A stretch of DNA of 7,207 nt, taken from positions 1-7,207 of the forward strand of contig JAVVGN010000088.1 in NCBI GenBank assembly GCA_032249095.1, given 5' to 3'. Origin of the DNA: Candidatus Caldarchaeales archaeon (GTDB taxonomy: Archaea; Thermoproteota; Nitrososphaeria_A; Caldarchaeales; Calditenuaceae). The notes under the pieces are model-generated. The model was not told the DNA's origin. It searched no databases and worked only from the letters and a program-made list of their open reading frames with translations. The position numbers and the translations under genes are program-made. Positions 256 to 5,768 of the stretch are shown in pieces. Position 1 is the stretch's first letter. The number at the start of each line of letters is the position of its first letter.

Positions 256-288
256 GAGGGGAAAGAAGGGGGGAGGGGTTGGCTGGCC
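256..288 (-). repeat. Element-end motif, copy 1: purine tract ending GAGGGGTTGG (C/T-rich on the element's coding strand)
   Basis: 256-288 reads GAGGGGAAAGAAGGGGGGAGGGGTTGGCTGGCC. The same arrangement occurs at 5717-5746. Both lie shortly beyond the structured segment that follows an IS110-like ORF, and similarity between the two loci fades just outside the motif. Confidence 0.55.
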
Positions 289-299
289 ACCCGTGCAGC

Positions 300-440
300 G
301 TGTGGGAAACCCTTAGAGGAGGCCGGACGTTAAATAAGCTATCGCAGCACCCGACGCCGGGGTGCGCGTTAATTGCGCCATCATACCGGCCTCCGGGTTT
401 TCCCTGCGCCGGCATGGACAGCCTCCCAAGGGTTTCCATC
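300..440 (-). ncRNA. Candidate structured RNA downstream of IS110-like remnant (copy 1)
   Basis: GC-rich island in A/T-rich surroundings containing only stop-poor spurious ORFs. Helices: 305-314/428-437 (10 bp), 318-323/421-426 (6 bp, stacks on the first), 318-326/386-394 (9 bp, alternative), 382-390/408-416 (9 positions; 385/413 is A.C on + but U.G on -, favouring a minus-strand RNA), and 364-368/374-378. It is the positional homologue of 5769-5916. Confidence 0.4.
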
Positions 441-444
441 CTAA

Positions 445-1000
445 ATATATCATCCAGATTCTTGAGAGGATTTCCTTCTCCTTTTTCGCGGTAAGATGAT
501 GTGTTGTGATGTTGTTTGCTGAAGCCGTCAGCTTCTGCAAAGCACGCCTCAAGTGCCGGCTACAGAATTTCCTTCTACCACGGATCGGTTTAAACAGCCC
601 TTAGATTGCCTGTCTTCCTGAACCCCGTGGATGGGTCTAGGTACGTTATCAGCTCGGCCAGAGCCTCCATAGCAACGAAGTTTCCACCCACACCTAGTGC
701 ATCCACAAGCCTATTATACACAGGATACCTCTTACCGGTCTCCTCAGCGATCATCCTAGCCACCTCCTCCATCCGCACCTCCAAGGACTTTATTACTTGC
801 CTCAGAACCTCCCTCTCAGCCTCAGACAAAGCCCTGTATTTGTTTAATAGTTGTTGGTGCGTTCTCGTCATAGTCCTATAAGCGGTTATCATCCTCCGCA
901 TAGCTAGGAAGTCCTCAGTAACCCTCCTAAGCCACCTCTCCTCTATGTTCATCAATGTCTTTATGTATCCCTTAGGAATGGAACACGGAAACATCCCCAT
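445..1000 (-). pseudogene. IS110-like transposase/recombinase paralogue, 5'-truncated and frameshifted remnant
   Basis: ORF 590-1000 aligns with ORF 5901-6380: ERWLRRVTEDFL...THQQLLNKY.ALS.AE.EVL...IAEE.GKRY..YN.LV..LGVGG...EAL.E..TY, 64/100 identical in the core. Similarity to copy 2 stops at about 978. After one extra nt near 601, the homology continues in the frame of ORF 313-552 (GLFKPIRGRRKF..LRRALQKLTAS...KEILSRIWMIYL vs GLWDRDRRTHY..ARHALETLTLS...EEVLKTIWLTL). The ATG at 1000 lies inside the direct repeat. Confidence 0.6.
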
Positions 1001-1038
1001 ACAGTTGGACTTGTGGGGAAACGAGGTAATATTCTGGG
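981..1038. repeat. 58-nt direct repeat, left copy (DR-A)
   Basis: GAACACGGAAACATCCCCATACAGTTGGACTTGTGGGGAAACGAGGTAATATTCTGGG matches 2406-2463 at 52/58 positions with no gaps (offset 1425). It abuts the truncation point of the IS110-like remnant. Confidence 0.9.
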
Positions 1039-1079
1039 GAAAAGGACAAACAACACTATACGGATACCCGAGGCCAGAC

Positions 1080-1260
1080 TAAACTTTCCCTCACGAGACG
1101 CGGAGTGTTCACCGGAGCCGGTCGCGCCCGGCTGGGGTCTCTGGGCCGCTGAGCCGCAGGGGGCTGGACGCCTTAATATTGTGGGTCTTGCTAGAGGGCG
1201 TCTAGGCATGCGGCTGAAGCTCTGGGAGGCTTTGGCGTCGAACGCTGGCTTCGTTTTTAC
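1080..1260. other. GC-rich helix-containing island between the LAGLIDADG gene 3' end and DR-A (function unknown)
   Basis: GC is clearly higher than in the adjacent 1320-2260 region. Stem 1164-1172/1197-1205 has 9 bp (one G.U on the + strand) and a 24-nt loop. Hairpin 1116-1121/1128-1133 has 6 bp. Only stop-poor overlapping ORFs are present (1013-1318 +, 961-1209 -, and the tail of 1202-1711 -). Confidence 0.3.
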
Positions 1261-2262
1261 TTTCCGTGATAGACACCGTGAACTGGTAAGTATGGGTGGG
1301 AAAAGGGAGAGGGTTTAAGTTTCTAGTTCTCCTGAAGTACTCTTCCAACCTCACTTGCCTCCTCCTGATTGTGAAGCCTATGTATTTGTAGAAGTTTGCG
1401 TTGCTAAAGGTTCTAATATAGATATAGTAGCAATCCTTTTTAGTCGTGTATATTTTCCCAGTAATGGGATTTATTTTTATTAGAGATCCTCGTCGACGAT
1501 TAAGTCTTGGGCCCGTTGACTCTATGCCGAACCTCTTAAGAAGTTCTTGGACGTATGTGAGTAGTCTCAGGTCGGTGTTGGTGATAAATATTTGTCCTTT
1601 CTTGTAAACGCTTCCTTCTGAGTCCGCGAATCCCCTGAGGAATGCCGCTGTGCACCTGTCACAGTGCTCTATATACTTCTTCAGTCTATCAAGGTCAACC
1701 GGTTTTCTCAAGAACTCGTAGAGCGTCTTGGACTCAACTTCGACGACGTCATATATTCTTGACGATAACCTATATGGTTTGATTGGTCCCCTTCCTAGAA
1801 CGACGCTTAAGCATCTCCCAAACTCTTCAACGAACTCCTTGTCTTTAGCCTCAAGACGTATTATGACATGGTTGTAGCCTTCGCGGACGCGGCTTTTCTT
1901 CTTAATATAATATATCCATCGCCTAAGACCACGCCGATCACGTATGCAAGCTCCACAGAGGGCTTCAACAGTTCTAATGAAGGTATCCTCCTGCCGTTGT
2001 ATGGGCTACGTATTCCGCGTAGCCACTCGCTTATCGACGATATGGGTATCCTCACGCCATATCTTCGGTAGATCTCGTCGATAATTTTATTGTATGATAG
2101 CCCGCTTCTCCGAAGAGCAACAACATCATCGTACAACTTTATTCGGAGCTCTTGTGGCAGGCATCTCCTCACTATTACTACACCTCCTCGCCCTCCATCT
2201 TTATCTCGTATGGCCTCGCCACCAACTGGAACCTCACCACCATCCCACTCCATCCTCATCAT
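1202..2262 (-). pseudogene. HTH + double-LAGLIDADG homing endonuclease, frameshifted as assembled
   Basis: ORF 1861-2262 carries an HTH-like segment (SGLSYNKIIDEIYRRYGVRIPISSISEWLRG) and LAGLIDADG motif 1 (AYVIGVVLGDGYI, about 1906-1944). ORF 1202-1711 carries motif 2 (FLRGFADSEGSV, 1607-1642). The second frame stays open upstream to 2005 and reads YIKKKSRVREGYNHVIIRLEAKDKEFVEEFGRCLSVVLG..., a typical post-motif-1 region. The two frames join with a 1-nt indel in the A/T-only run at about 1903-1915. The likely real start is GTG 2172, 26-33 nt downstream of the TATA-like box. The natural C-terminus is probably near 1300, with the ORF tail running on into GC-rich DNA. Confidence 0.8.
2168..2250 (-). 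promoter_or_regulatory. Shared 5' promoter/leader module, copy upstream of the LAGLIDADG gene
   Basis: About 70-75% identical to 6717-6800 (ungapped offset 4549 over the first ~50 nt). It contains the minus-strand sequence AGGCCATACGAGATAAAGA, with a TATA-like GATAAAGA at 2198-2205. Similarity ends at the start codon (GTG 2172, aligned with TTG 6721). Confidence 0.55.
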
Positions 2263-2322
2263 CCGTTTCGGAGAAGAACACCAACCGGCCCCGCATATAA
2301 AGAGTAATGGCCCTAATAACTA

Positions 2323-2340
2323 GGCCATCCCCAACCCTCA
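2323..2340. repeat. Inverted, imperfect copy of the GAGGGGTTGG..TGGCC end motif
   Basis: GGCCATCCCCAACCCTCA has the reverse complement TGAGGGTTGGGGATGGCC. This aligns with 273-288 (GAGGGGTTGGCTGGCC) at 14 matched positions with 3 gap positions. Confidence 0.3.
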
Positions 2341-2405
2341 CCCACTAAGAGCTGGACACACCAGAGAAAGAGATAGGCGTTATTAAGAAGGAGAGGCCTA
2401 AACTA

Positions 2406-2463
2406 GAACACGGAAACATCCCTATACAGCTAGACTTGTGGGGAAAAGAGGTAATTTTCAGGG
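2406..2463. repeat. 58-nt direct repeat, right copy (DR-B), overlapping the ABC gene start
   Basis: 52/58 identical to 981-1038. It contains the TTG start (2436) and the first 9 codons of ORF 2436-3362. The left copy carries a diverged, quickly terminated version (MWGNEVIFWGKGQ...stop). Confidence 0.9.
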
Positions 2464-3362
2464 AGCTGGGCAGAAGGGCTGCTGCTAAGGCGCTTCTCTA
2501 CGCCTCGACCGCCTTCCTATCGAGGTCCATATCCCTCGGCCTCCTCCTCCCCCTAATACTGAGGGACGTCGTCACGGCGCTCAGCACCACACCCCCAGAC
2601 TCGCGGCTCCTCAACCAGGGGATGCTCTCCCTAGCCGCGGTAGCGGTGGCCGTCTCTGCGACCGAGTGGCTCCTAAGGCCCTTCTGGAACCAGATGGCGC
2701 GAGGCATAGTCTCGATAAAGAAGCGGATCCTCGGGCGGGGCCCGGCAGCGTGGGGGGATGGGGGCGACGTGATTGGCAGGATAGTGAGCGACATCGACTT
2801 CGTGATCTGGAACAGCTCCGGCGGCTTCACCACGATGCTCCCAAACGTCCTGATGGCCTCGGCCTCCCTCGCAGCGATGGCAAGCCTCAGCCCCGCGATG
2901 GGCCTCCTAGGCGCGGCCATCATCCCGCCCCTCGCCGCGGTCACCGAGCTCTACAGCAGGAGGGTAGAGCAGGCCCGAAACATCGAGAGAAGCTTTTACA
3001 GCCAGAACATACACTCGGCCGAGAGGTATCTGAACGGCGAGGTGGGTGTGCTCGCCGAGTTCTACACGTCGCTTGACAGGTGGCTCGCGGGGATAATGAG
3101 GATAATCCACTATGACAGGGTCTTCTGGTTCTCGGGGCTGGCGGTCAGCACCTCTCTCCCGCTGGCGGTGCTGTGGCTGGGACTCGCAGAGCTGGAGCGG
3201 GGCAGCATGAACGTCGGCGCAGTGGCGGGCTCGCTCTACGCCAGCGTGAACTACTCCCTCTCGTTGTTCAACGGCTTCTGGGGTCTCTGCATGCTCGGTC
3301 AGTCTCTCGCACCAATCAAGAGGGTCGCGCTGATCTCGCAGGAGAGAAGTAGGGTATCCTAG
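2436..3362 (+). CDS. ABC exporter transmembrane domain protein (type I exporter TMD, no nucleotide-binding domain)
   Basis: 308 aa with six hydrophobic segments. GDVIGRIVSDIDFV resembles the conserved G..i.R...D motif of ABC_membrane domains. The protein ends in the TMD-NBD linker-like stretch SLAPIKRVALISQERSR. Codon usage is GC-rich like the neighbouring host genes, and the start is TTG. Confidence 0.72.
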   Translation: MWGKEVIFRELGRRAAAKALLYASTAFLSRSISLGLLLPLILRDVVTALSTTPPDSRLLNQGMLSLAAVAVAVSATEWLLRPFWNQMARGIVSIKKRILGRGPAAWGDGGDVIGRIVSDIDFVIWNSSGGFTTMLPNVLMASASLAAMASLSPAMGLLGAAIIPPLAAVTELYSRRVEQARNIERSFYSQNIHSAERYLNGEVGVLAEFYTSLDRWLAGIMRIIHYDRVFWFSGLAVSTSLPLAVLWLGLAELERGSMNVGAVAGSLYASVNYSLSLFNGFWGLCMLGQSLAPIKRVALISQERSRVS

Positions 3363-3454
3363 AGTCCTCGAAGCTCCCCGCGCCGCGTCCTAGGGGGAAC
3401 ACTGCTTCTCCCTAAGATTTATCTAGGCCCGCGAGCGATTTTTATCGAGCTGGG

Positions 3455-5716: not shown

Positions 5717-5746
5717 GGGGGAGGAAAAGAGGGGAGGAGGGGTTGG
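5717..5746 (-). repeat. Element-end motif, copy 2: purine tract ending GAGGGGTTGG
   Basis: GGGGGAGGAAAAGAGGGGAGGAGGGGTTGG has the same composition, orientation and relative position as 256-282. A weaker relative, GGGTGGGAAAAGGGAGAGGGTTT, lies at 1294-1316 near the end of the LAGLIDADG gene. Confidence 0.55.
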
Positions 5747-5768
5747 TATGCTTCACCCGACTTTAGAG

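What the first reader, a model, noticed from the sequence alone, without database searches (positions are those of the whole stretch)
2168..2250. One promoter/leader module serves two unrelated nuclease genes, as if a cassette replaced the DEDD domain with an HTH-LAGLIDADG gene
Regions 2168-2250 and 6717-6800 are about 70-75% identical. They include AGGCCATA[C/A]GAGATAAAGA and have identical spacing to aligned start codons (GTG 2172 and TTG 6721). Similarity stops within two codons of the start. Downstream, copy 2 encodes the DEDD-like N-domain (6464-6718, about 85 codons), whereas copy 1 has the 1.19-kb HTH-LAGLIDADG cassette (979-2169). Homology between the copies then resumes at 978/6463 through the rest of the IS110-like gene. 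So a DNA-cleaving module was exchanged precisely between conserved flanks, rather than inserted at random. This suggests homing into, or modular shuffling within, this element family.
Basis: seen in the sequence. Interest (0 to 1): 0.7.

Follow-up and report, generated by a model that had tools for sequence, protein, structure and literature searches.

The report
One junction, three swappable mobility genes
The repeated 82-base stretch is the tail of a small upstream gene in a family of archaeal mobile elements, and any of three different DNA-cutting or recombining genes can follow it; in this window it marks separate element copies, not one gene whose front half was replaced.

Summary
In detail: 2169-2250 and 6718-6799 are 61/82 identical, against a best score of 38 for any other 82-mer. 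It is not a generic promoter. It is the 3' end of an upstream ORF, "p167" (…VARPYEIK…EV*), whose stop touches the next gene's start.

A metagenome scan with the leader core gave 92 distinct units. At one fixed junction the next gene is a 273-aa protein with an IS621-like fold (46 units), a second 284-aa protein (21) or the HTH-LAGLIDADG gene (22). Upstream modules 94-97% identical carry different genes, so gene shuffling in this family is real.

The local reading is wrong. The window holds three separate copies:
- a LAGLIDADG unit (about 1290-2463);
- an internally deleted copy (259-1081) with its own 101-nt left end (981-1081), fused to codon ~93 of the recombinase-like gene;
- a p167 + recombinase-like copy (5717-7207).

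Sister contigs carry the same LAGLIDADG unit with no recombinase remnant beside it.

Extras:
- The recombinase-like forms have a roughly 190-nt structured 3' RNA with a variable internal loop.
- LAGLIDADG forms keep the same C-rich right end but abut tRNA gene 3' ends (13/20 contexts, against 0/42).

The likely host is Caldarchaeales. This is a new variant of known kinds; the mechanism is inferred.

The parts
259..440 (-). Element 1 (internally deleted ISx copy): 3' non-coding RNA-like region ending in the C-rich right-end motif (259-282)
   Evidence: 259-282 matches 5723-5746 (D11). The reverse complement of 230-440 matches the 3' regions of 16 other units at 77-92%.
441..978 (-). Element 1: 3' part of the ISx gene (from about codon 93), with further frame breaks near 600-640
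   Evidence: tblastn with ISx residues 95-213 hits 964-605. 71% DNA identity to copy 2 (D1 and D9). Three-frame translation.
981..1081 (-). Element 1: seg100, the 101-nt left terminal segment of the element family, fused directly to ISx codon ~93
   Evidence: Found in 36 of 96 units upstream of the leader, with more than 25 different upstream flanks. Homology between the window and L001-L005 breaks exactly at 1081/1082.
1082..1289 (.). DNA between the LAGLIDADG unit and element 1; 1082-1204 is shared with sister contigs L001-L005; no tRNA or Rfam family detected
1290..1315 (-). C-rich right-end motif of the LAGLIDADG unit (AACCCTCTCCCTTTTCCCACCCATAC), read as the P/T-rich C-terminal tail of the LAGLIDADG ORF
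   Evidence: It aligns with the right ends of ISx and p284 units and with the tails of other LAGLIDADG units.
1202..2172 (-). HTH-LAGLIDADG gene (start GTG 2172), frameshifted by a TATAT insertion at 1910-1914
   Evidence: Pfam LAGLIDADG_3, E=1e-17. 98% identical to the intact 351-aa P0121. Indel located.
2169..2250 (-). Leader copy 1: remnant of the last ~22 codons of p167 (…SGMVVRFQLVARPYEIKMEGEEV*) and the junction to the LAGLIDADG start
2251..2405 (-). Spacer of the element's 5' module, between seg100 and the leader
   Evidence: Aligns over its full length (70-80%) with the same region of other units (query LAGLup_full).
2406..2463 (-). 5'-truncated seg100 (positions 44-101) of the LAGLIDADG unit; it overlaps the first codons of the ABC-membrane ORF 2436-3362 (+)
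   Evidence: (D3). In L039 seg100 is complete here and the ABC gene is absent.
5717..5905 (-). Element 3: structured 3' RNA-like region of ISx copy 2, ending in the C-rich right-end motif (5723-5746); its variable loop strand CTAACTTAAAT is complementary to flank DNA about 23 nt beyond the motif
5901..6721 (-). ISx copy 2: 273-aa protein with an IS110/IS621-like fold, frameshifted by a 1-nt deletion near 6423
   Evidence: 93% identical to P0001; fold; indel.
6718..6799 (-). Leader copy 2: 3' end of p167 (…REQVERFHIVARP*, premature TAA at 6757-6759) and the junction to the ISx start, TTG 6721
6727..7178 (-). p167 gene (167-aa family, no Pfam domain), frameshifted near 6952 and running towards the contig end
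   Evidence: tblastn at 77-87% to L022 p167. 118 homologues, some labelled Candidatus Caldarchaeales. Indel located.

Best explanation
The two 82-nt stretches are homologous copies of one internal junction of a multi-copy mobile-element family. The likely host is Caldarchaeales (formerly Aigarchaeota).

A full element reads:
- left end: seg100 (about 100 nt) plus a spacer;
- small ORFs p64 and p167, which are often partly or wholly deleted;
- one 'engine' gene;
- right end: a C-rich motif plus an A/T-rich tail.

The 'leader' is the last ~25 codons of p167. Its stop overlaps or touches the start of the engine gene.

The engine is one of three genes:
(a) ISx, a 273-aa protein with an IS621-like fold (RuvC-like domain, coiled coil, helical domain);
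(b) p284, which has a KTDENDV motif;
(c) an HTH + double-motif LAGLIDADG endonuclease.
ISx and p284 are each followed by a roughly 190-nt structured RNA with a variable internal loop. The LAGLIDADG gene has no such RNA.

Engines have been exchanged repeatedly between the same two flanks: the p167 stop on the left and the 3' RNA or C-rich right end on the right. The most likely route is homologous recombination between element copies (inferred).

The window holds three separate copies.
(1) A LAGLIDADG form at ~1290-2463. Its left end is truncated against an ABC-membrane gene.
(2) An ISx form at 259-1081. It has lost everything between seg100 and ISx codon ~93.
(3) A p167 + ISx form from 5717 to the contig end.
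Copy 2 lies just downstream of copy 1 in the same orientation, and this mimics a 'domain replacement'.

Shown: the homologies, junctions, copy structures, fold and tRNA association.
Inferred: the leader is kept because it codes for p167 and carries the ribosome-binding site (GGAGGTG) and perhaps a TATA-like box (GATAAAG, about 30 nt before the start). ISx and p284 forms move by an IS110/IS1111-like RNA-guided reaction. LAGLIDADG forms are placed at tRNA 3' ends by the endonuclease.
For: The leader is p167 coding sequence. L022 has the operon p274up-p64-p167-ISx with overlapping stops and starts. p167 maps to window 6727-7178. Reading frame 1 of both leaders gives …VARPYEIK….

Family-wide junction. 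The leader-core scan returned 93+ loci. Of 92 distinct units, 46 carry ISx, 21 p284 and 22 LAGLIDADG, with every upstream state represented: full p167, partial p167 or none. Upstream 237-nt modules 94-97% identical carry different engines. Left junctions coincide. The window's ISx upstream region (7182-6758) is 90% identical to the region upstream of a LAGLIDADG gene in L008.

Element ends. seg100 has more than 25 different flanks. Sequence diverges after the C-rich motif. ORF-less copies join seg100 to the 3' region. LAGLIDADG tails carry the same C-rich motif.

Local structure. seg100 at 981-1081 is fused to ISx codon ~93. L001-L005 carry the LAGLIDADG unit without it, with the break at 1082. 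L039, an independent assembly, is collinear with the window.

Fold. The AlphaFold2 model has pLDDT 78.8. Foldseek's top hits are IS621 and ISCro4 (E=7e-8, TM 0.61) and TasR.

RNA. The conserved nested stems and variable internal loop are shown.

tRNA association. 13 of 20 distinct LAGLIDADG 3' contexts abut a convergent tRNA gene, against 0/22 for ISx and 0/20 for p284.
Against: - No empty site, circular junction or transcript data exist, so mobility and promoter function are inferred.
- ISx has no Pfam, NCBIfam or PDB-sequence match to IS110.
- The Asp of the KTD motif is S/T/A in ISx, and no catalytic Ser was identified, so ISx may not be a recombinase.
- The ISx-p284 profile comparison is insignificant, and p284 could not be modelled.
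- ISx relatives in L019 and L006 lack the leader and seg100, with homology starting about 15 nt before the start codon. This fits a model in which ISx alone is the mobile unit and the leader is its target.
- The window's flank beyond element 1 (1-258) does not match L001, so the local history involves more than one simple insertion.
- The scan was seeded with the leader, so units without a leader are under-sampled.
Confidence: 0.7

Rival explanations
1. Target-site model. The p167 3' end (the leader) is not part of the same element. It is a preferred insertion site in a repeated host or parasitic module, and three independent mobile genes land there: two IS110-like elements guided by their RNA, and a homing LAGLIDADG gene.
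For: ISx relatives in L019 (P0051) and L006 (Archaeon HR02) have neither leader nor seg100, and homology starts at the G-rich GAGGGGGTG about 15 nt before the start codon. That G-rich box is complementary to the C-rich right end, so the two could be short terminal inverted repeats. IS110/IS1111 elements are known to target repeated sequences such as REP and attC (PMC11187229). ISPpu9 shows that modules of an IS110 element can move alone or together (PMC12288879). Nested deletions all begin at the 3' edge of seg100.
Against: The variable RNA loop strands differ among copies that share the same leader. Where they match DNA, it is beyond the right end or upstream of seg100, not in the leader. ORF-less derivatives join the seg100 module to the ISx 3' region, as expected if both are ends of one element. 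LAGLIDADG forms retain the same right-end motif. No leader without an engine gene was found, apart from the rearranged remnant in L069.
Confidence: 0.2
2. In copy 1, one IS110-like gene had its DEDD N-domain (6464-6718 in copy 2) replaced precisely by a 1.19-kb HTH-LAGLIDADG cassette between conserved flanks, by homing into the gene.
For: The order and orientation in the window (leader, then LAGLIDADG, then recombinase C-half) and the coincidence of the leader's end with the start codons.
Against: A complete 101-nt element left end (981-1081) lies between the two parts, abutting the C-half. About 200 nt of unrelated DNA and a right-end motif (1290-1315) follow the LAGLIDADG core. Sister contigs carry the same LAGLIDADG unit with host genes after position 1082. 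In more than 20 other LAGLIDADG units the gene is followed by a tRNA gene or another full unit, never by a recombinase C-half at that junction, except in L039, which is the same locus.
Confidence: 0.04
3. The similarity is a generic archaeal promoter / ribosome-binding consensus found upstream of many unrelated genes.
For: The stretch contains a TATA-like GATAAAG and a GGAGGTG Shine-Dalgarno-like box at suitable distances from the start codons (sequence).
Against: The score is 61/82 against a background maximum of 38/82. Only two copies occur in the window, both next to element genes. Homology extends to 430 nt at 90% between ISx and LAGLIDADG contexts. The stretch is the conserved C-terminus of a protein family. 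In 92 units it is followed only by three element gene types.
Confidence: 0.02
4. Assembly artefact. The window is a chimeric metagenome contig joined through the repeated LAGLIDADG unit, so the adjacency of the LAGLIDADG gene and the recombinase C-half is not real.
For: The window combines a left context seen in L001/L002 (ABC gene) with a right context seen in L039. The 1.4-kb unit is 98-99% identical among them. The window also carries three indels in element genes.
Against: L039, from a different sample and assembly, has the same LAGLIDADG-seg100-ISx-fragment adjacency and is collinear with the window over 6.2 kb. L002 confirms the ABC/oxidoreductase side. The three haplotypes differ by simple indels at one locus.
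Confidence: 0.04

Closest known systems
IS1111/IS110-family insertion sequences with seekRNA / bridge RNA (e.g. IS621, ISEc11, ISPa11)
   Same: - The predicted fold of ISx matches the IS621 and ISCro4 recombinases.
- A long structured non-coding region lies directly downstream of the gene, as in IS1111-type elements (PMC11187229).
- That region has an internal loop with two variable strands closed by a hairpin.
- The elements are multi-copy, with defined ends and varied flanks.
- Short matches exist between the loop strands and flanking DNA.
   Different: - No sequence-level match to PF01548/PF02371 or to IS621.
- ISx is shorter, at 273 aa.
- One RuvC Asp position is not conserved, and no catalytic Ser was identified.
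- Only one variable loop is seen, not separate target and donor loops.
- The element carries extra ORFs (p64, p167) and a long 5' non-coding module.
- The recombinase gene can be replaced by a LAGLIDADG gene.
Modular IS110 element ISPpu9 of Pseudomonas putida (PMC12288879)
   Same: Modules of an IS110-type element occur alone or combined at different loci. Here the combinations are the engine gene alone (L019, L006), 5' module + engine, and 5' module + 3' region with no ORF.
   Different: ISPpu9's second module is a small RNA gene, and circular intermediates were shown experimentally. Here the modules include protein genes and an alternative endonuclease, and nothing has been tested experimentally.
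Free-standing LAGLIDADG homing endonuclease genes
   Same: The protein has two LAGLIDADG motifs with the acidic residues retained (…VLGDGY…, …FADSEGS…) plus an N-terminal HTH-like region. It is multi-copy with 655 homologues. It lies outside any intron or intein.
   Different: It sits at a fixed junction inside a transposon-like frame, taking the place of a recombinase-like gene. Its C-terminal tail is the translated right end of the element. In 13 of 20 contexts it abuts the 3' end of a tRNA gene of varying identity. No cognate HEG-less allele or recognition site is known.
TIGR-Tas RNA-guided systems (TasR) and the Nop5/IS110 link
   Same: TasR is among the significant fold hits (E=2e-6). The two short variable strands flanking a hairpin resemble a dual-spacer guide unit (PMC12045711; 10.1101/2024.06.21.599552).
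   Different: There is no tandem array: each gene has a single RNA unit. The elements are dispersed repeats with defined ends, and the best fold hits are the IS621-type recombinases.
Integrative elements that occupy tRNA gene 3' ends
   Same: LAGLIDADG forms end directly against the 3' end of convergent tRNA genes: Pro, Arg, Val, Phe, Met, Lys, Thr, Gly, Asn and Ser.
   Different: There is no integrase. The tRNA gene appears intact rather than duplicated in part, and the unit is only about 1.4 kb.

Membership tests
IS110/IS1111 family (DEDD recombinase with guide RNA) | Sequence signature of the recombinase: Pfam DEDD_Tnp_IS110 (PF01548) and Transposase_20 (PF02371) | tested here: not met
   No hit for the repaired 273-aa ISx at E<=1 in Pfam or NCBIfam. 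None for p284. A profile search of PDB sequences did not find IS621.
IS110/IS1111 family (DEDD recombinase with guide RNA) | Three-part fold: RuvC-like domain, coiled coil, helical Tnp domain | tested here: met
   AlphaFold2 model of P0001 (93% identical to copy 2): pLDDT 78.8, pTM 0.73. Foldseek top 11 hits are IS621 and ISCro4, E 7e-8 to 1e-6, TM 0.54-0.61.
IS110/IS1111 family (DEDD recombinase with guide RNA) | Conserved DEDD tetrad and the catalytic serine of the Tnp domain | tested here: inconclusive
   In alignment A1, D7, E61/E68 and D94 are invariant. The only aligned stretch with p284 puts ISx K-S-S-R-G-D opposite p284 K-T-D-E-N-D, so the first Asp is S/T/A in ISx. No conserved SG-type serine is evident, and the model is poor at residues 221-227. 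Residue equivalences to IS621 rest on my recollection of its motifs.
IS110/IS1111 family (DEDD recombinase with guide RNA) | Long non-coding region next to the gene that encodes a structured RNA | tested here: met
   A ~190-nt conserved 3' region is shared by ISx and p284 units. RNAalifold predicts 34 pairs, 4 with compensatory changes, plus a covarying inner hairpin. Expression was not tested.
IS110/IS1111 family (DEDD recombinase with guide RNA) | Short RNA segments that match both strands of the target and the element ends | tested here: inconclusive
   8 of 31 units have a complementary match of >=10 nt between a variable loop strand and DNA 23-130 nt beyond the C-rich motif, against about 6% in a flank-swapped control. 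Same-sense matches lie upstream of seg100 in L009 and L118. The exact element ends are not fixed, so target and donor roles cannot be assigned.
LAGLIDADG homing endonucleases | LAGLIDADG domain(s) with catalytic acidic residues | tested here: met
   Pfam LAGLIDADG_3, E=1e-17, two stretches. The motifs LAYVIGVVLGDGY and AAFLRGFADSEGS are conserved in homologues.
LAGLIDADG homing endonucleases | Location in an intron or intein, or free-standing next to its own cleavage site, with spread into HEG-less alleles | not testable with these tools
   The ORF starts right after the p167 stop and is not embedded in a host ORF, so it is free-standing. No empty allele or cleavage site could be identified. 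The association with tRNA 3' ends is only a lead.
Generic archaeal promoter (BRE/TATA) consensus | Similarity limited to short consensus boxes, found upstream of many unrelated genes | tested here: not met
   61/82 identity against a background maximum of 38. Homology extends to 430 nt at 90%. The stretch is followed only by three element gene types in 92 units.
Non-autonomous deletion derivatives (MITE-like) of an insertion sequence | Both element ends retained, internal genes deleted | tested here: met
   The window's element 1 runs from seg100 to ISx codon ~93 and on to the right end. ORF-less copies of about 600 nt in L049, L113 and L118, and similar ones in L034, L050 and L065, join the seg100 module to the 3' region.

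The most novel reading that the evidence does not exclude
One element frame (seg100 left end, p167 junction, C-rich right end) accepts alternative mobility engines, and the engine sets where the element lands.
- Forms with the compact IS110/Nop5-like protein use a single-loop guide RNA encoded at their 3' end.
- Forms in which that gene and its RNA are replaced by an HTH-LAGLIDADG endonuclease are placed exactly at the 3' ends of many different tRNA genes, where the element's T-rich tail could act as the tRNA gene's terminator.
This would be a natural swap between RNA-guided and protein-guided targeting within one transposon lineage. The ISx clade would also be an archaeal IS110 relative that standard sequence profiles miss.
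Probability: 0.3. Interest if true: 0.85.

Novelty: new variant of a known kind. Interest (0 to 1): 0.62.

Why it matters
If the family reading is right, three things follow.
1. It is a natural case of mobility genes of different mechanistic classes being exchanged at a fixed junction inside one element frame. The classes are IS110-like, apparently RNA-associated proteins and a LAGLIDADG endonuclease, and the exchange comes with a clear change in genomic address (tRNA 3' ends).
2. It exposes an archaeal clade with an IS110-like fold (more than 800 proteins, no Pfam model) and a compact 3' RNA. This bears on the proposed IS110-Nop5-TIGR relationship and on the search for small programmable recombinases from thermophiles.
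3. For annotation, it shows that a 'chimeric' gene order in such loci can be two adjacent, decayed element copies.

Tried and rejected
- Rfam on the whole window (E<=1) and on 1040-1330 (E<=10) gave only chance-level hits. ARAGORN found no tRNA in the window, so the tRNA link of LAGLIDADG units is not visible locally.
- The genome-contig scan with the ISx alignment gave a single distant locus, Archaeon HR02 at 49% identity. The viral-contig scan with the leader pattern gave nothing.
- Pfam and NCBIfam gave nothing for ISx, p284, p167, p64 or p274up.
- PDB sequence searches gave nothing useful for ISx (only coiled-coil noise) or for the LAGLIDADG protein.
- The p167 structure model was too poor to search with (pLDDT 56.5). 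Its function stays unknown.
- The profile-profile comparison of ISx against p284 was not significant (probability 2%). Calling p284 IS110-like rests on a motif, the shared 3' RNA and the shared C-terminal codons.
- I looked for leader-complementary segments in the 3' RNA and found none beyond the G-rich/C-rich pair. I therefore rejected the idea that the leader is the RNA-specified target.
- I considered a 58-bp target duplication as the origin of the 981-1038 / 2406-2463 repeat. I rejected it because the repeat is part of a segment present in dozens of unrelated loci.
- I considered a bulge-helix-bulge or group I intron, or an intein, as host of the LAGLIDADG ORF. Nothing supports this: the ORF is free-standing after the p167 stop.
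Full report
OBSERVATION. The repeat finder reports 2169-2250 vs 6718-6799 as an ungapped 82-nt match at 74% (D2). That is 61 identities. The best score of either copy against any other 82-mer of the window is 38 or 36, z about 9. The core AGGCCATA[C/A]GAGATAAAGA and the equal spacing to GTG 2172 and TTG 6721 are as described, and similarity ends at the start codons. The 3' gene halves are also homologous: 642-941 vs 6121-6420 at 71%, and 949-975 vs 6427-6453 at 85% with a 1-nt register shift. This repeat is the key to the local structure.

WHAT THE GENES ARE. Copy 2, repaired for one frameshift, encodes a 273-aa protein.
- Pfam and NCBIfam give no IS110 domain, and a profile search of PDB sequences does not find IS621.
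- The family is large: 840 proteins, typically 273 aa, with no Pfam domain, mostly on short metagenome contigs.
- An AlphaFold2 model of P0001 (93% identical) reached pLDDT 78.8. Its best Foldseek matches in the PDB are the bridge-RNA recombinases IS621 and ISCro4 (E 7e-8, TM 0.61), followed by TIGR TasR.
- 'IS110-like' is therefore right at the level of fold, not sequence. I call the protein ISx.

The other ORF is a double-motif LAGLIDADG protein with an N-terminal HTH-like region (LAGLIDADG_3, E=1e-17). It has 655 homologues, and the closest is the intact 351-aa P0121 at 98% identity.

THE 'LEADER' IS THE END OF AN UPSTREAM GENE. In L022 the ISx gene is the last of four tightly packed ORFs: p274up, p64, p167 and ISx. 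The 167-aa ORF ends …ERFHIVARPYEIKTRNEGVHGC*, and its stop overlaps the ISx start. tblastn places p167 at window 6727-7178. Frame 1 of both window leaders reads …VRFQLVARPYEIKMEGEEV* and …VERFHIVARP*. p167 has 118 close homologues and no Pfam domain. Some come from MAGs labelled Candidatus Caldarchaeales. Its structure model was too poor to use.

I scanned the metagenome collection with the leader core GAGGTTCCANNTNRTNGCNAGGCCRTAYNAGRTMAAG.
- Of 92 distinct units, the gene starting about 61 nt after the pattern start is ISx in 46, a different 284-aa protein (p284) in 21, and the LAGLIDADG gene in 22. The last three units were cut short or rearranged.
- Upstream, every engine type occurs with full p167 (plus p64), with 5'-truncated p167, or with only the last ~22 codons.
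- Clustering the 237 nt upstream mixes the three types. L053 (ISx) and L059 (p284) are 97.4% identical. L068 (ISx) and L102 (p284) are 96.6% identical. L080 (ISx) and L089 (LAGLIDADG) are 94.9% identical. L052 (LAGLIDADG) and L073 (ISx) are 94.1% identical.
- In such pairs similarity ends at the same place, just after …GG(A/G)GGTG, the last Val codon of p167.
- The window's own ISx upstream region (7182-6758) is 90% identical to the region upstream of a LAGLIDADG gene in L008.

The stretch is not a generic consensus, and the junctions are not heterogeneous. Modular exchange of the downstream gene is real and recurrent.

THE ELEMENT FRAME.
- Left end. The 101 nt at window 1081-981 ('seg100', core CTTGGGTATCCGTATAGTGTTG…GTTTCCGTGTTCTA) recur upstream of the leader in 36 of 96 matches and have more than 25 different upstream flanks. 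This marks a left end.
- Between seg100 and the leader lies a spacer plus a variable amount of p64/p167, with many nested deletions that start at the seg100 edge.
- Right end. ISx and p284 share a ~190-nt 3' region that begins within their last codons (…QEAGxxAPA*) and ends in CCAACCCCTCCCCCC(T)TCTTTCC. Flanks diverge after that.
- ORF-less copies join the seg100 module to this 3' region, as expected of deletion derivatives of one element.
- LAGLIDADG units lack the 3' RNA but keep the same C-rich motif, read as the P/T-rich tail of the protein, followed by an A/T-rich tail.

The exchanged segment is thus the whole engine gene, with or without its RNA, between the p167 stop and the right end.

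WHAT THE WINDOW CONTAINS. There are three copies, all on the minus strand.
(1) A LAGLIDADG form.
- seg100, truncated to positions 44-101, lies at 2463-2406 and is fused to the first codons of the ABC-membrane ORF 2436-3362 (+).
- The spacer lies at 2405-2251 and the leader at 2250-2169.
- The LAGLIDADG gene runs 2172-1202, with the right-end motif at 1315-1290.
(2) An internally deleted ISx form at 259-1081. The complete seg100 (1081-981) is fused to ISx codon ~93 at 978, followed by the 3' region and the right-end motif (282-259).
(3) A p167 + ISx form, from 7178 or beyond down to 5717.

The evidence against a domain swap is direct.
- Contigs L001-L005 carry the same ABC-LAGLIDADG locus at 98.4% identity. 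Their homology to the window stops exactly at 1082, the outer edge of seg100, and host genes follow.
- L039, from another sample, is collinear with the window over 6.2 kb including the LAGLIDADG/seg100/ISx-fragment adjacency. It has a complete seg100 and no ABC gene.
- So at least three haplotypes exist at this locus, and the contig is not a chimera.

Relative to these sisters, the window's element genes all carry disabling changes:
- a TATAT insertion at 1910-1914;
- 1-nt deletions near 6423 and 6952;
- TAC->TAA at 6757-6759.

HOW IT LIKELY WORKS (inferred).
- The leader is conserved because it encodes the p167 C-terminus. It also carries the ribosome-binding box (GGAGGTG) and possibly a TATA-like box (GATAAAG, about 30 nt before the start) for the engine gene.
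- ISx and p284 forms resemble IS1111-type elements, whose non-coding region lies downstream of the transposase and yields a seekRNA that matches both target strands (PMC11187229).
- RNAalifold on 20 diverse 3' regions gives nested long-range stems. Two variable 10-12-nt strands form an internal loop closed by a covarying hairpin.
- In 8 of 31 units one of these strands has a match of 10 nt or more, in complementary orientation, to DNA 23-130 nt beyond the C-rich motif. A flank-swapped control gives about 6%. The window example is CTAACTTAAAT, matching about 23 nt beyond the motif.
- In L047 and L078, which share about 65 nt beyond the motif, the complementary site lies where they diverge. The true right boundary may therefore lie further out.
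- Whether these strands guide to the target or to the element ends is open.
- ISx lacks one expected RuvC Asp and an evident catalytic Ser, so its chemistry is uncertain.
- Engine exchange is most simply explained by homologous recombination between copies, using the p167/leader region on one side and the 3' RNA or right end on the other. ISPpu9 is a precedent for modular behaviour in IS110-type elements (PMC12288879).

tRNA ASSOCIATION. In 13 of 20 distinct LAGLIDADG 3' contexts the unit ends …CCTACCCCTCCCCCAACCATTTCCC…CTCAAAATAATAACTAATAT, directly against the 3' end of a convergent tRNA gene. The tRNAs are Pro, Arg, Val, Phe, Met (two loci), Lys, Thr, Gly, Asn and Ser. None of 22 ISx and 20 p284 contexts has a tRNA gene within 500 nt. 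The window's own unit is an exception: no tRNA was detected there. This suggests, but does not show, that the engine determines the insertion site.

COMPARISON AND NOVELTY. The parts are known kinds: an IS110-like protein with an adjacent structured RNA, a LAGLIDADG endonuclease, and MITE-like derivatives.
- New here is the combination: a common frame with accessory ORFs, in which these engines alternate at a fixed junction.
- Also new are the tRNA-end location of the LAGLIDADG forms and an ISx clade that current sequence profiles miss.
- A full-text search found no paper combining LAGLIDADG, IS110 and archaea.
- The work on IS110-Nop5 evolution notes that archaeal IS110 relatives may be missing from its data (10.1101/2024.06.21.599552).

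VERDICT. Family-level cassette exchange holds; the local 'DEDD domain replaced' reading does not. This is a new variant of known kinds, with moderate to high interest and an inferred mechanism.

Noticed in passing
window 5717-5905 (and 259-440); loci L007, L009, L019, L022, L047, L078 and others: A ~190-nt conserved structured region follows the ISx and p284 genes. Long-range stems enclose an internal loop with two variable 10-12-nt strands and a covarying hairpin. One strand is often complementary (9-11 nt) to DNA 23-130 nt beyond the C-rich end motif. In the window, CTAACTTAAAT pairs with flank DNA about 23 nt beyond the motif, in the promoter region of the 4539-5666 gene.
   Followed up: partly
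L008 (192-267, 5050-5124), L009 3899-3971, L031, L052, L066, L071, L092 (two), L107, L110, L117: LAGLIDADG units end directly against the 3' end of a convergent tRNA gene of many identities: 13 of 20 distinct contexts, against 0 of 42 for ISx and p284. The unit's terminal CTCAAAATAATAACTAATAT reads as a T-rich stretch on the tRNA strand and could act as its terminator.
   Followed up: partly
window 1910-1914, ~6423, ~6952, 6757-6759: All three element genes in the window are disrupted relative to sister contigs: a TATAT insertion in the LAGLIDADG gene, single-base deletions in ISx and p167, and TAC->TAA in p167. This could be real decay or sequencing/assembly error; two of the changes are single-A deletions.
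   Followed up: partly
window 2436-3443 vs L039 2663-2907 and L001/L002: There are three haplotypes at this locus. The ABC-membrane ORF (308 aa, transmembrane domain only) starts inside the truncated seg100 in the window and in L001/L002. It is absent from L039, where seg100 is complete. Its first ~9 codons therefore derive from element sequence.
   Followed up: partly
L049, L113, L118 (about 600 nt); L034, L050 3977-, L065/L103: ORF-less, MITE-like copies consist of seg100, ~350 nt of conserved non-coding sequence (with GC-rich, apparently structured stretches) and the ISx-type 3' region.
   Followed up: partly
L069 682-960: Next to a tRNA-Gly gene lie an inverted remnant of the first ~20 LAGLIDADG codons and a leader on the opposite strand. 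The breakpoint is exactly at the leader/LAGLIDADG junction, which hints that this junction is recombination-prone.
   Followed up: no
window 6151-6175 and 6820-6844: A 25-nt inverted repeat, 88% complementary, links the ISx coding region (…GVGGRSS…) and the p167 coding region (…PRIYHLPP…), 644 nt apart. Its conservation in other copies was not checked.
   Followed up: no
window ~6737-6729 vs 5723-5746; L022 and L019 likewise: The G-rich box just before the ISx start (GAGGGGGTG, also the ribosome-binding-like site and the last p167 codons) is complementary to the C-rich right-end motif. It could be a short terminal inverted repeat or an anti-Shine-Dalgarno pairing.
   Followed up: partly
L022 1485-2504; L054, L078, L080, L095, L120: In several loci two further ORFs of unknown function precede p167 in a tight operon: p274up (274 aa) and p64 (64 aa). 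Neither has a Pfam domain. It is unclear whether p274up belongs to the element.
   Followed up: no
window 7134-7164 (-): A weak, sub-threshold Rfam match to the C/D-box sRNA family sR53 (18.5 bits against a gathering score of 49, E=0.82) lies inside the p167 coding region. It is probably chance.
   Followed up: no
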